From Minisyncoccota bacterium (GTDB lineage Bacteria > Patescibacteriota > Minisyncoccia > Phycocordibacterales > BOKC01), in NCBI GenBank assembly GCA_030583745.1, contig CP129473.1, forward strand, positions 362,887 through 426,886: DNA of 64,000 nt, in the 5' to 3' direction. Position 1 is the stretch's first letter. Each line of letters begins with the position of its first letter. The notes under the pieces were generated by a model, which saw only the letters and a list, made by a program, of their open reading frames with translations, made no database searches and had not been told where the DNA came from. Shown piece by piece: positions 60,944 to 64,000 of this stretch. Made by a program: the position numbers and the translations under genes.

Positions 60944-60962
60944 GACATCGCAAGTCCTTATT
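60944..60962. repeat. REP-like 19-nt hairpin aaggacatcgcaagtcctt (orientation A), just 3' of the transposase gene.
   Basis: Stem aaggac/gtcctt with 7-nt loop. Related copies at 61476, 61697, 61748. Confidence 0.7.
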
Positions 60963-61644
60963 ATTCTAAATCTAAAGCAACCTCTTGAAAATTTTCCACA
61001 CTTATATCTTTAAGCCAGTTTCGTATACCTTTTCTATAGCCATCAGTTCCGCCGAAAAAATCTAACATGAAATCACGTTGGGTAACAGATGGAAAATTTT
61101 TCTCTCCAAGATAGTCTAAATGACTCGACCAACGATAAGAACCTAGAAAATTTATTGCCTGCCTATAATCTTTCAACTTCCCCTCTCTCCACTCCGGCGC
61201 GGTTAAATCAAGAGGGTTTAAATGAATGTAATAAGGTAAGTGAATGAAATGCGCGTCGTTTTCTACTAAAACTCTTTTATATCTTGATTCAAATAAAGCC
61301 CCCTTTCTCTCATATTTTTCATTGAAATATTTAGCATATCCCATATTTACTTTCTTCATAAATTTGGAAATACCGTAATCTATTTTGGATGAAATCAATA
61401 AATGATAATGGTTGGGCATCAAACAGAAAGCGTTAAGATTTACCAACAGTTTTCGCTTCTGCCGAGTTTTTTCAATATAAGGACTTGCGATGTCCTTAAT
61501 TTTGGAGAAACGATAAAGAGAGTTGTTAACCCAATTCTGATCGTTAAACTCAAATAAATCGTGAATAAAACGGAGATAATCCTTGTTATCAAGAAAAATA
61601 TTTCTCTTGTCTACCCCTCTATTTAGTACGTGGTAAAACTCCAT
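60961..61644 (-). CDS. IS200/IS605-type HuH Y1 transposase / REP-associated tyrosine transposase (RAYT)-like.
   Basis: HuH motif PNHYHLL. C-terminal Tyr region RYKRVLVENDAHFIHLPYYIHLNPL. Confidence 0.7.
   Translation of the reverse strand: MEFYHVLNRGVDKRNIFLDNKDYLRFIHDLFEFNDQNWVNNSLYRFSKIKDIASPYIEKTRQKRKLLVNLNAFCLMPNHYHLLISSKIDYGISKFMKKVNMGYAKYFNEKYERKGALFESRYKRVLVENDAHFIHLPYYIHLNPLDLTAPEWREGKLKDYRQAINFLGSYRWSSHLDYLGEKNFPSVTQRDFMLDFFGGTDGYRKGIRNWLKDISVENFQEVALDLE
61476..61494. repeat. REP-like hairpin aaggacttgcgatgtcctt (orientation B), located inside the transposase CDS (encodes KDIASPY).
   Basis: Exact reverse complement of the 60944 copy. Confidence 0.7.
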
Positions 61645-62053: not shown

Positions 62054-62110
62054 TGCGCGTGCCAGGGATCGAACCTGGGACCTTTCGAGTATCAGTCGAA
62101 TGCTCTACCT
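62054..62110 (-). pseudogene. Partial copy (~55 nt, 3' portion: T-arm, anticodon arm, part of D-arm) of tRNA-Ile(GAU).
   Basis: Identical to the 3' part of the 62155..62227 tRNA, diverging at the D-stem. Confidence 0.55.
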
Positions 62111-62154
62111 TCACCCGCCCATCAATTTTTAAATACTTTATTTACCGTCCAAAG

Positions 62155-62227
62155 TGCGCGTGCCAGGGATCGAACCTGGGACCTTTCGAGTATCAGTCGA
62201 ATGCTCTACCAACTGAGCTACACGCGC
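62155..62227 (-). tRNA. tRNA-Ile (anticodon GAU).
   Basis: gcgcgtg-ta-gctc-agttggta-gagc-a-ttcga-ctGATac-tcgaa-aggtc-ccagg-ttcgatc-cctgg-cacgcgc-a; perfect cloverleaf. Confidence 0.8.
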
Positions 62228-62284
62228 ACTCTAGAAATTAAAAATATATTTATTGATGTCAAAATTGATAGGCGGGCAAGCCTG

Positions 62285-62393
62285 AGCTACACGCGCGCAA
62301 TATTTGCTTTTCAAGATTCTAACACCCTGCGTACGTTTAATCTCTGGGCCTACCAAGACAGCTACACGCGCGCAATATTTGCTTTTCAAGATT
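62285..62393. repeat. Two 34-bp direct repeats (agctacacgcgcgcaatatttgcttttcaagatt) 75 bp apart; their first 12 nt equal the 5' end of tRNA-Ile (reverse complement gcgcgtgtagct).
   Basis: Seen in sequence at ~62285..62318 and ~62360..62393. Confidence 0.6.
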
Positions 62394-63399: not shown

Positions 63400-63547
63400 G
63401 TTCAATTTGAAATATTCCACGAGCAGCTTCCGCTACCCGTGCCTTGTTACGACTTACTCCCTGTTATTGAGCTTACCGTGATGCCACAAAAGTGACGCTT
63501 CGGGTATTCCCAACTCCCTTGAGTTGACGGGCGGTATTTGATGTGTT
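63400..63547 (-). rRNA. Partial 16S rRNA, 3'-terminal ~150 nt (E. coli ~1390-1540 region), continuing upstream beyond an intervening sequence.
   Basis: Reverse complement reads ACCGCCCGTCAACTCAAGGGAGTTGGG...GGGAGTAAGTCGTAACAAGGCACGGGTAGCGGAAGCTGCTCGTGGAAUAUUUCAAAUU. Universal 1400-region and GUAACAAGG signatures; h45 with GGAA loop. Boundaries approximate. Confidence 0.6.
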
Positions 63548-64000
63548 ATAATGTCACCATTATAATTCTCTTCAACACGGGGCAAGCGGTTTTCCCGCAC
63601 CCTCGCGTTTTCCAAAGGTTGCTTATCCGATTTTTTTATCGAATTCACTTACCTTGCCATGATAAGTTTTAGCTTTCTTCCCTAATGAGCGCAAATCATT
63701 GCGTAGGGAAACAATTTTGTTAAATCCATCATCAGATAAATGTTCTTTGGCGCAAACCATAAGAACTATTTTTCTAAAAATAAGATAGGATTTTTTCTTT
63801 TTCGCCTGTAATGGATACTTATCAAGAAACGGGAATAAATACTCTTTCAGGTCCCAGATGCTGGTAATTTTATACTTGGCATGCGGATACCATCCATATC
63901 GCTCATAAGAGCAATCATAAATTCTCCCGATTCCGATAGTCACAAGTATGCGTTCCAGGATTTCTTGATCATCTTTCCGCAATTCTATTTCAAATTCCGG
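63548..64000 (-). mobile_element. Intervening sequence (probable group I intron) inserted near the 16S 1390s/1400 region, carrying a homing-endonuclease ORF; extends beyond window end.
   Basis: Sequence between the recognisable 16S exon and window end is non-rRNA-like and encodes a LAGLIDADG-fold protein in the rRNA orientation. Confidence 0.5.
63623..64000 (-). CDS. LAGLIDADG-family homing endonuclease (I-CreI-like, C-terminal part; N-terminus with the LAGLIDADG motif lies outside the window).
   Basis: ...IGRIYDCSYERYGWYPHAKYKITSIWDLKEYLFPFLDKYPLQAKKKKSYLIFRKIVLMV... aligns in pattern with the I-CreI segment VGYVRDRGSVSDYILSEIKPLHNFLTQLQPFLKLKQKQANLVLKII. Frame open to position 64000. Confidence 0.55.
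   Translation of the reverse strand, partial: PEFEIELRKDDQEILERILVTIGIGRIYDCSYERYGWYPHAKYKITSIWDLKEYLFPFLDKYPLQAKKKKSYLIFRKIVLMVCAKEHLSDDGFNKIVSLRNDLRSLGKKAKTYHGKVSEFDKKIG

What the first reader, a model, noticed from the sequence alone, without database searches (positions are those of the whole stretch)
63548..64000. Intervening sequence with I-CreI-like LAGLIDADG homing endonuclease inserted in the decoding-centre region of 16S rRNA
The recognisable 16S sequence stops ~5 nt upstream of ACCGCCCGUCA (1400 region) and is replaced by AT-rich sequence. That sequence encodes, in the rRNA orientation, a protein with the LAGLIDADG fold (the LAGLIDADG motif itself would lie outside the window). Self-splicing introns with homing endonucleases in 16S are characteristic of CPR lineages. 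The exact insertion site (near 1391-1397) is functionally critical and worth pinning down.
Basis: partly seen in the sequence, partly recalled or inferred. Interest (0 to 1): 0.5.

Follow-up and report, generated by a model that had tools for sequence, protein, structure and literature searches.

The report
Group II intron in CPR 16S rRNA

Summary
On the minus strand, the 16S 3' exon (ACCGCCCGUCA...) starts at 63535. Everything from 63536 to the window end is intervening sequence. It encodes the C-terminal 125 residues of a LAGLIDADG_1 protein (Pfam E=6e-10), 95% identical to 192-aa single-motif proteins from CPR genomes.

The RNA is not a group I intron. Rfam finds no group I core here or in complete relatives. 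The window does hold a 34-nt domain-V hairpin (63608-63575) with a CGC triad, a G.U wobble and a 2-nt 3' bulge. All 975 base-pair cells across 75 homologues pair, and 6 of 13 pairs show compensatory changes. A domain-VI hairpin follows, ending in AU.

Complete relatives (92% identical over the shared 601 nt) add three things:
- a group-II J2/3-DIII Rfam hit in 22 of 22 loci tested;
- an EBS1 loop, GAGUAC, complementary to the exon end GUACUC;
- an 8-nt 5' linker.

The insertion lies between C1397 and A1398 (E. coli numbering). A U921A/A1396U compensatory pair supports this.

This matches the published CPR "16IS9" group-II-like insertions (J Bacteriol 2024) and the IIC-LAGLIDADG "rns-1396" family (Salman 2012; GBE 2026). 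It is a known kind of element and of low interest. Splicing and homing are inferred, not shown.

The parts
63626..64000 (-). C-terminal 125 codons of the intron-encoded single-motif LAGLIDADG_1 homing endonuclease. This lies in the loop of intron domain IV. The N-terminal ~67 codons and the LAGLIDADG motif are beyond the window end.
   Evidence: Translation. Pfam PF00961, E=6.2e-10, above the cut-off. PDB LAGLIDADG hits. 95% identity and 100% coverage to the 192-aa protein P0001.
63623..63625 (-). TAA stop codon of the endonuclease ORF.
   Evidence: It is at the same position as the end of homologues P0001-P0006 (...SEFDKKIG/E*).
63612..63618 (-). 3' strand (CCUUUGG) of the basal stem of domain IV, followed by the AAA linker (63611-63609). 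Its partner CCAAAGG lies inside the ORF (codons I-Q-R), beyond the window.
   Evidence: In relatives the two strands covary: CCAAAGG/CCUUUGG, UCGUAGG/CCUACGG, CCGACGC/GCGUCGG, CCAAGGAA/UUCCUUGG. In 69 of 74 distinct introns at least 7 of 8 positions pair. The 5' strand of the window's own copy is not visible.
63575..63608 (-). Domain V, 34 nt: A-CGC-G-[A]-GGGU-GCGG-GAAAA-CCGC-[UU]-GCCC-CGUGU. It has a CGC catalytic-triad position with a G.U wobble, a 2-nt bulge on the 3' strand, and an extra invariant bulged A on the 5' strand.
   Evidence: 13 pairs counted on 75 sequences: 100% of 975 cells pair, 6 pairs have changes on both sides, and 0 of 500 shuffles reach the covariation score. Slid controls give 33-52% pairing. 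The MFE fold reproduces the hairpin, z=-4.75.
63536..63574 (-). J5/6 plus domain VI (hairpin AUUAUAAUG-GUGA-CAUUAUAA with a GNRA loop) and the intron 3' end ...CAUCAAAU. The 3' splice site lies between 63536 and 63535.
   Evidence: Folds of 67 distinct homologous segments. The upper stem covaries (AUUAUAAUG/CAUUAUAA, GUGCCGUG/CACGGCAC and others). 30 of 67 have a single bulged A 7-9 nt from the 3' end. The window's clade has only a 2-bp basal stem and no clean bulged A.
63405..63535 (-). 16S rRNA 3' exon: E. coli A1398 through h44, h45 and the 3' tail. The tail reads GGAAUAUUUCAAAU and has no CCUCC anti-Shine-Dalgarno.
   Evidence: Rfam SSU_rRNA_bacteria alignment to model positions about 1390-1533. 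The same exon is seen in 80 related loci. The exact mature 3' end is approximate.

Best explanation
Window 63536-64000 (minus strand) is the 3' part of a roughly 1-kb group II intron with a IIC-like core. The visible parts are the domain IV loop with its ORF, the 3' strand of the DIV stem, DV and DVI.

The intron interrupts the single 16S rRNA gene of a CPR (Parcubacteria/Paceibacteria-type) bacterium between C1397 and A1398 (E. coli numbering). This is the junction of h28 and h44 at the decoding centre. Instead of a reverse transcriptase it encodes a single-motif LAGLIDADG_1 homing endonuclease.

Proposed mechanism, inferred and not shown:
1. The pre-16S transcript folds into the ribozyme.
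2. The loop GAGUAC (EBS1) in domain I pairs with the last six exon bases, GUACUC. This fixes the 5' splice site 8 nt upstream of the (A/G)UGCG motif, so an 8-nt linker is part of the intron.
3. DV provides the catalytic centre.
4. The exons are ligated to restore ...CUUGUACUC|ACCGCCCGUCA....
5. In the window's clade DVI has lost a clean bulged A, so the first step is probably hydrolysis rather than branching.
6. The endonuclease, acting as a homodimer, cuts intron-less 16S alleles at this site. Repair copies the intron in (DNA homing), which explains its wide but patchy spread across CPR.

It belongs to the kind already described as CPR '16IS9' group-II-like insertions and as the 'rns-1396' IIC-LAGLIDADG family.
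For: Shown in the window:
- LAGLIDADG_1 ORF.
- A DV hairpin with a CGC triad, G.U wobble and 2-nt bulge, with full pairing and 6 compensatory pairs across 75 homologues.
- A stable DV+DVI fold, z=-4.75.
- The intron ends in AU.

Shown in complete relatives that are 92% identical to the window over all 601 shared nt:
- Rfam group-II-D1D4-1 (RF01998) is above its gathering score in L001, L003 and 20 of 20 further diverse loci, always at the ORF start.
- RF02003 is sub-threshold at the 5' end.
- There is no Intron_gpI hit in this intron.
- An invariant GAGUAC sits in the loop of a covarying stem about 170 nt into 72 of 76 introns. It is the exact complement of the exon end GUACUC.
- The DIV stem covaries.
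- An 8-nt 5' linker pairs with the following bases, with visible compensatory changes.

Exon boundary: all these 16S genes have A at E. coli position 921 (GAAUAGACGGGG) instead of U. This compensates for U1396 in GUACUC, so UC belongs to the exon.

Literature:
- Group-II-like insertions occur only at about position 1400 of CPR 16S. 39 of 53 encode LAGLIDADG proteins and none encodes an RT (PMC11270868).
- The rns-1396 family has a IIC backbone, a single-motif endonuclease in DIV, a 5' terminal linker in all members, no EBS2, and IBS1 plus IBS3 (PMC13190283).
Against: - Only the 3' ~465 nt are in the window. DI-DIII, the 5' splice site and the LAGLIDADG motif of this particular copy are unseen and could be damaged.
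- Rfam's DV/DVI model (Intron_gpII, RF00029) does not hit, even at E<=10. The likely reason is that DV has an extra bulged A and a 5-nt loop.
- EBS1 and IBS1 are both invariant, so that pairing has no covariation support.
- The test for a gamma-gamma' pair with the last intron base was inconclusive.
- The IIC label rests on the CGC triad, on my recollection of the O. iheyensis intron sequence, and on the 2026 paper's classification of the Thiotrichaceae family. I did not align that family to this one.
- No RNA data were available, so splicing, its chemistry and endonuclease activity are all inferred.
Confidence: 0.85

Rival explanations
1. A group I self-splicing intron carrying an I-CreI-like endonuclease.
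For: LAGLIDADG genes usually sit in group I introns. CPR 16S genes do carry true group I introns, for example L001 4744-5504 (RF00028, 62.5 bits) and L029 1329-1566.
Against: - There is no RF00028 hit in the window at E<=10 or in the complete homologous intron at E<=1.
- The 5' exon ends in C, not U, and the intron ends in U, not G.
- Group II DV, DVI, J2/3-DIII and EBS1 are present instead.
Confidence: 0.02
2. A ribozyme-dead relic or plain intervening sequence. Host nucleases such as RNase III would remove it without ligation, leaving a fragmented 16S. Alternatively it would need host or protein factors rather than self-splicing.
For: - Bacterial rRNA intervening sequences removed without religation are well known (established knowledge).
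- DVI in the window's clade lacks a clean branch-site bulge.
- The canonical DV model does not match.
- No RNA evidence is available.
Against: - Strong purifying and compensatory evolution of DV, DIV, the EBS1 stem and J2/3-DIII across distant CPR classes argues for a working ribozyme.
- A break between 1397 and 1398 would sever h44-h45 from the body at the decoding centre.
Confidence: 0.08
3. A disabled 16S pseudogene or an assembly chimera, with the LAGLIDADG ORF sitting next to a 16S fragment by accident.
For: The window ends inside the element, and metagenome contigs often break at rRNA operons.
Against: - The same junctions recur in 80 independent contigs from many studies.
- The ORF is intact and 95% identical to full-length proteins.
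- tRNA-Ile follows the 16S, as in a normal rRNA operon.
Confidence: 0.03

Closest known systems
CPR '16IS9' group-II-intron-like insertion sequences at about position 1400 of 16S rRNA (Tsurumaki, Sato, Kanai, J Bacteriol 2024, PMC11270868)
   Same: Same host clade, same gene and site, same Rfam group II signal, same LAGLIDADG_1 ORF, and no reverse transcriptase (searches compared).
   Different: Nothing substantive; this is the same thing. That paper calls them 'reminiscent of group II introns'. In the parts I read it does not give DV/DVI details, EBS1 or the exact 1397/1398 junction.
'rns-1396' group IIC-LAGLIDADG intron family of Thiomargarita and other Thiotrichaceae (Salman et al. PNAS 2012; Liu et al. 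GBE 2026, PMC13190283)
   Same: Same 16S site (1396/1397), a single-motif LAGLIDADG gene in DIV, a 34-nt DV, a 5' terminal linker in all members, no EBS2, and a single-A DIV-DV linker (searches compared).
   Different: The host is CPR, not Gammaproteobacteria; the 2026 survey lists the family only in Thiotrichaceae. I could not fetch a Thiotrichaceae copy, so direct homology of the RNAs and the proteins is untested. Whether their DV also has the extra bulged A is unknown to me.
Fungal mitochondrial rRNA group IIB1 introns with LAGLIDADG ORFs and 5'-terminal insertions (Toor & Zimmerly 2002; Mullineux 2010; Li, Costa, Bassi, Lai, Michel 2011; summarised in PMC4424553)
   Same: A group II ribozyme combined with a LAGLIDADG gene in an rRNA gene. 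Extra nucleotides lie between the exon and the GUGYG-like motif, EBS2 is lost, and some members have a DVI without a bulged A (one search compared).
   Different: Those introns have a IIB1 backbone, mostly double-motif enzymes, an organellar host and other insertion sites. Here the triad is CGC, J2/3-DIII is IIC-like and the enzyme has a single motif.
Oceanobacillus iheyensis group IIC intron (crystallised ribozyme)
   Same: From memory: a CGC triad with a G.U wobble in DV, and the J2/3-DIII sequence AGAAGUCAGCAGAAGUCAUAGUACC. This closely matches AGAAGUCAGCAGAGUUCGUAGUACC in these introns.
   Different: O.i.I1 starts directly with GUGUG, inserts after terminator hairpins, has no LAGLIDADG ORF, and has no bulged A in the 5' strand of DV. 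The comparison is from memory and is a lead, not a test.
Group I introns with LAGLIDADG genes in rRNA (for example the I-CreI intron, and the CPR 16S intron near position 1495)
   Same: The same mobility logic: an endonuclease cuts the intron-less rDNA allele. One such intron sits 76 nt downstream in related loci.
   Different: A different ribozyme class; no group I core is present here.

Membership tests
Group II intron (ribozyme) | Domain V: a hairpin of about 34 nt with a catalytic triad (AGC or CGC, middle G in a G.U pair) and a 2-nt bulge on the 3' strand | tested here: met
   Window 63608-63575. 13 pairs are 100% paired in 75 sequences and 6 are compensatory. CGC is invariant, and the G.U is present in 74 of 75. 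Deviations: an extra invariant bulged A and a GAAAA loop. Rfam RF00029 does not hit.
Group II intron (ribozyme) | Domain VI hairpin with a bulged branch-point A 7-8 nt from the 3' splice site; the intron ends in AY | tested here: inconclusive
   The hairpin and the terminal AU are present in the window. A single bulged A at -7 to -9 occurs in 30 of 67 distinct relatives, but not in the window's clade, where the basal stem has only 2 bp.
Group II intron (ribozyme) | EBS1 loop in domain I complementary to the last bases of the 5' exon (IBS1) | tested here: met
   GAGUAC sits in the loop of a covarying stem in 72 of 76 related introns and is the complement of the exon end GUACUC. This region is outside the window, and both partners are invariant, so there is no covariation.
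Group II intron (ribozyme) | Conserved J2/3 and domain III; 5' GUGYG | tested here: met
   RF01998 is above its gathering score in 22 of 22 related loci tested. (A/G)UGCG or a variant lies 8 nt downstream of the splice site rather than at it. Both are outside the window.
Group II intron (ribozyme) | Self-splicing or protein-assisted splicing activity | not testable with these tools
   No RNA data or assays are available.
IIC-LAGLIDADG 'rns-1396' / CPR '16IS9' family | Insertion at 16S position 1396/1397 (reported as about 1400) | tested here: met
   The junction is ...CUUGUACUC | intron | ACCGCCCGUCA. The U921A/A1396U compensation places UC in the exon.
IIC-LAGLIDADG 'rns-1396' / CPR '16IS9' family | Single-motif LAGLIDADG ORF in domain IV, no RT; 5' terminal linker; no EBS2 | tested here: met
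   192-aa one-motif proteins. The ORF body is enclosed by the covarying DIV stem. An 8-nt linker is present. EBS2 was not searched for systematically.
IIC-LAGLIDADG 'rns-1396' / CPR '16IS9' family | Sequence homology to the Thiotrichaceae type members | not tested
   No Thiomargarita sequence could be fetched.
Group I intron | P3-P7 catalytic core (Rfam RF00028); 5' exon ending in U paired to G; terminal G | tested here: not met
   No RF00028 hit at E<=10 in the window or at E<=1 in the complete relative. The exon ends in C and the intron ends in U.
LAGLIDADG homing endonuclease (Pfam LAGLIDADG_1) | Profile match above the curated cut-off | tested here: met
   40.3 bits against a cut-off of 23.1, E=6.2e-10, on the 125-aa fragment. 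PDB hits reach E=6.5e-22.
LAGLIDADG homing endonuclease (Pfam LAGLIDADG_1) | LAGLIDADG helix with the catalytic acidic residue; site-specific DNA cleavage | not testable with these tools
   The motif lies beyond the window end. Homologues 91-95% identical to the fragment have GFIDGEGSF. Activity is untested.
I-CreI-type (one-motif, homodimeric) architecture | One LAGLIDADG motif per chain of about 160-200 aa | tested here: met
   Met in the full-length homologues (192 aa, one motif). By sequence they are closer to I-OnuI/I-SmaMI halves (E about 1e-37) than to I-CreI (E=1.5e-7). Dimerisation is inferred.

The most novel reading that the evidence does not exclude
CPR bacteria, not Thiotrichaceae, may be the main reservoir of the IIC-LAGLIDADG 'rns-1396' intron family. 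At least 132 of the GTDB species-representative contigs scanned carry it. The CPR copies show traits I did not find in the text I read:
- an invariant extra bulged A in the 5' strand of domain V;
- an endonuclease ORF that starts inside J2/3 and reads through DIII, so the conserved N-terminus MQEVSRVRST is dictated by the ribozyme;
- a sub-clade, including this window, that has lost the branch-site bulge and so should splice only by hydrolysis.
Probability: 0.4. Interest if true: 0.35.

Novelty: already known. Interest (0 to 1): 0.2.

Why it matters
On its own it matters little. It is one more copy of a published class of mobile intron in CPR 16S genes.

It has three practical consequences:
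- The insert makes 16S genes about 1 kb longer and splits the 1392/1406 universal primer site, so such organisms are missed or mis-sized in amplicon surveys.
- It makes Rfam and annotation pipelines mis-align the 3' end of 16S, as seen.
- It marks the contig as CPR.

Two points could interest RNA specialists. The family is a natural case of a group II ribozyme that has swapped retro-mobility for DNA homing. CPR genomes also offer hundreds of covarying copies for modelling it.

Tried and rejected
- **Extending the window's own contig.** An exact 68-nt pattern found nothing in metagenome contigs. Look-ups of three neighbouring window proteins gave only contigs that stop before the 16S, or nothing at all. 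The 5' two-thirds of this copy therefore stay unseen, and relatives 92% identical served as proxies.
- **Rfam Intron_gpII (DV/DVI) and Intron_gpI.** Neither hits at permissive thresholds. I therefore tested DV directly by covariation.
- **A canonical DV register without the bulged A.** Rejected, because the observed covariation (G33-C51 changing to A-U) fits only the register with the bulge.
- **A gamma-gamma' pair between J2/3 and the last intron base.** L085 covaries (A to U paired with U to A), but L068 and L079 do not. Inconclusive.
- **GAGUAC right after the linker hairpin as EBS1.** Rejected, because it is not conserved outside the window's clade. The conserved GAGUAC about 170 nt into the intron is the better candidate.
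- **5' splice site directly before (A/G)UGCG.** This would leave 8 extra bases in the decoding centre. Rejected, because the 8 bases vary and covary with intron bases, and because EBS1 pairs with GUACUC.
- **Archaeal bulge-helix-bulge intron.** Considered and dropped; the host is bacterial and ribozyme domains are present.
- **Salman et al. 2012.** It could not be read.

Full report
**What is in the window**

The last 600 bases of the window, read on the minus strand, hold the 3' end of a bacterial 16S rRNA gene. Rfam's bacterial SSU model aligns h44, h45 and the tail (truncated hit, E=4.6e-9). The universal ACCGCCCGUCA starts at 63535.

Upstream of it, at 63536-64000 and running off the window, the 16S similarity is replaced by foreign sequence. 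One frame in the rRNA orientation is open from 64000 to a TAA at 63625-63623.

- Its 125 residues match Pfam LAGLIDADG_1 above the curated cut-off (E=6.2e-10).
- They match solved LAGLIDADG endonucleases (best E=6.5e-22).
- They are 95% identical over their whole length to 192-aa database proteins.

The exon begins exactly at the A of ACCGCCCGUCA. The intron's last base is 63536, not about 63548.

**Relatives**

Contigs encoding the closest proteins (L001, L003) and a scan of one genome per GTDB species were examined.

- 132 contigs encode a relative, and 80 were fetched. Nearly all are labelled Patescibacteria/CPR: Taylor-, Nomura-, Kaiser-, Magasanik-, Uhr- and Falkowbacteria among others.
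- Nearly all of them have the same insertion of about 0.95-1.1 kb, between ...GUGAAUACGUUC..CUUGUACUC and ACCGCCCGUCA.
- The window's 601 nt (intron 3' part plus exon) are 92% identical over their full length to L003-L005, and 91% to L056.

I could not extend the window's own contig. These complete copies serve as proxies for the unseen 5' part.

**It is not a group I intron**

- Rfam Intron_gpI does not hit the window even at E<=10.
- It does not hit the complete intron of L001 at E<=1.
- The same search does find a true group I intron with a LAGLIDADG_3 ORF 76 nt further downstream in that locus.
- The exon ends in C and the intron in U. Group I would need a U and a terminal G.

**It has the parts of a group II intron**

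Inside the window:

- Between the stop codon and the exon lie 87 nt that fold into two hairpins (MFE -29.2 kcal/mol, z=-4.75).
- The first hairpin (63608-63575) is 34 nt long. Its sequence is A-CGC-G-[A]-GGGU-GCGG-GAAAA-CCGC-[UU]-GCCC-CGUGU.
- On an alignment of 75 distinct homologues, all 13 pairs form in all 975 cells and six pairs show changes on both sides. None of 500 shuffles reaches the covariation score, and sliding the partner drops pairing to 33-52%.
- The CGC, its G.U wobble, the closing U.G and the 2-nt bulge on the 3' strand are the hallmarks of domain V. An invariant extra bulged A and a five-base loop probably explain why Rfam's DV/DVI model stays silent.
- The second hairpin (63574-63536) has a GNRA loop and a covarying upper stem, and ends ...AU. 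That is the layout of domain VI.
- 30 of 67 distinct relatives show a single bulged A 7-9 nt from the 3' splice site, the canonical branch point. The window and its close kin keep only a 2-bp basal stem and no clean bulge.

In the complete relatives:

- Rfam's group-II-D1D4-1 model scores above its gathering threshold in L001, L003 and 20 of 20 further diverse loci, always at the start of the ORF.
- A second group II model (D1D4-4) aligns below threshold to the 5' end.
- The RF01998 region reads AGAAGUCAGCAGAGUUCGUAGUACC. As far as I recall, this is almost the J2/3-DIII sequence of the crystallised O. iheyensis IIC intron.
- The ORF's AUG lies just upstream of it. The highly conserved N-terminus MQEVSRVRST is therefore the translation of the ribozyme core.
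- The endonuclease domain proper is enclosed by a covarying stem, CCAAAGG...CCUUUGG (domain IV). Its 3' strand is window 63618-63612.

**Where exactly it is inserted**

All related 16S genes read GAAUAGACGGGG, where E. coli has GAAUUGACGGGG. Position 921 is therefore A, which compensates for a U at 1396 in ...GUACUC. The numbering and the 921-1396 pair of h28 come from established knowledge of the E. coli 16S structure. So UC belongs to the exon, and the intron lies between C1397 and A1398.

Independent support comes from a hairpin loop about 170 nt into 72 of 76 distinct introns. It contains GAGUAC, the exact complement of the exon's last six bases, on a stem that covaries (UCC/GGA, CUC/GAG, UUCC/GGAA, CCC/GGG). 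This is what EBS1-IBS1 should look like. It places the 5' splice site after C1397, 8 nt upstream of the (A/G)UGCG motif.

Those 8 nt (GGGUCGCC, GGAUCGCU, UUUUCGCC, UGACGC...) vary. They pair with the following bases with visible compensation. They are an intron 5' linker, not extra rRNA.

**How it most likely works**

All of the following is inference.

1. The pre-rRNA folds into the ribozyme.
2. EBS1 selects the 5' site.
3. DV catalyses both steps, and the exons are ligated to restore the decoding-centre strand.
4. In the window's clade the missing branch-site bulge, together with the 5' linker, suggests a hydrolytic first step. This has been shown for fungal rRNA introns with 5' insertions (Li et al. 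2011, as summarised in PMC4424553).
5. The one-motif endonuclease would act as a homodimer, cut intron-less 16S alleles and spread the intron by DNA homing.

**Comparison with what is known**

- Tsurumaki, Sato and Kanai (J Bacteriol 2024, PMC11270868) surveyed CPR rRNA genes. They found group-II-intron-like insertions only at about position 1400 of 16S (site 16IS9). 39 of 53 encode LAGLIDADG_1 proteins and none encodes a reverse transcriptase.
- Liu et al. (GBE 2026, PMC13190283) define the family 'rns-1396', first seen in Thiomargarita (Salman et al. 2012). It has a IIC backbone, a single-motif endonuclease in DIV, a 34-nt DV, a 5' terminal linker in all members and no EBS2. They list it only in Thiotrichaceae.

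The window's element matches both descriptions feature by feature. I could not obtain a Thiotrichaceae copy, so homology to that family is not directly tested.

**Verdict**

The finding is real, but it is an already described kind of element. Interest is low.

Three details may be worth a specialist's glance: the extra bulged A in DV, the ORF that begins inside J2/3, and the apparent loss of the branch site in one CPR sub-clade. Another is that CPR genomes hold far more copies of this family than the 2026 survey credits to bacteria.

Noticed in passing
window 63405-63445 (minus strand); L003, L007-L040 and other loci: The 16S 3' tail reads GGAAUAUUUCAAAU and has no CCUCC anti-Shine-Dalgarno. 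Related Paceibacteria-type loci share this, while Magasanik-, Uhr- and Falkowbacteria loci keep GGAUCACCUCCUUUCU. In line with this, only 1-2 of 46 long ORFs in the window have a GGAG-type motif upstream, which is background level. Loss of the anti-SD in a Parcubacteria subgroup is already reported (PMC9297842).
   Followed up: partly
window 62054-62393 (minus strand genes): Downstream of the 16S lies tRNA-Ile(GAU) at 62154-62227, plus an exact 56-nt duplicate of its 3' part at 62054-62109. Rfam calls this duplicate a 41-bit tRNA; ARAGORN does not call it. There are also two further partial copies of the tRNA 5' end, each followed by the same 34-nt repeat (62285-62318, 62360-62393). These could be scars of integration or recombination at the tRNA gene.
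   Followed up: no
window 60961-61644 (minus strand): A 227-aa ORF next to the tRNA cluster is a Y1_Tnp (IS200/REP-associated tyrosine transposase family) protein. The identical protein is found on several Logan contigs that all break near the tRNA/rRNA region.
   Followed up: no
L001 4744-5504; L029 1329-1566; also L008, L026, L030, L032, L034, L036-L038, L044, L047, L052, L072, L079, L085: Many related 16S genes carry a second intron about 76 nt into the 3' exon, after ...GUAAGUCGU near E. coli position 1495. In L001 it is a true group I intron (RF00028, 62.5 bits) with a LAGLIDADG_3 ORF. The window's 16S does not have it.
   Followed up: partly
L001 3131 and about 50 other loci (16S position 921); window 16S position 1396 is beyond the window end: These CPR 16S genes have A921 and U1396 where E. 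coli has U921 and A1396. This is a compensatory swap at the top of h28, next to the decoding centre.
   Followed up: yes
P0077, P0114 and window 63536-63622 in the ORF frame: In some homologues the endonuclease ORF lacks the stop before domain V and reads through DV/DVI, giving ...REGAGKPLAPW.... The same peptide appears after the stop codon in the window's frame. This shows that the ORF end drifts relative to the ribozyme.
   Followed up: no
L008, L011, L050, L053, L046, L073 (introns of 1.2-1.5 kb): A few copies of the intron are 200-500 nt longer. In some (L008, L009, L013) the extra sequence begins right after ...UAGUUGGUG in domain I. This suggests nested insertions or expanded loops.
   Followed up: no
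L064, L071, L073 (titles): Contigs carrying this CPR-type 16S and intron are filed in MAGs labelled Thermoplasmatales archaeon, Bathyarchaeia archaeon and Gammaproteobacteria. Many others carry a generic 'uncultured Candidatus Saccharibacteria' label. These are probably mis-binned or mislabelled short contigs.
   Followed up: no
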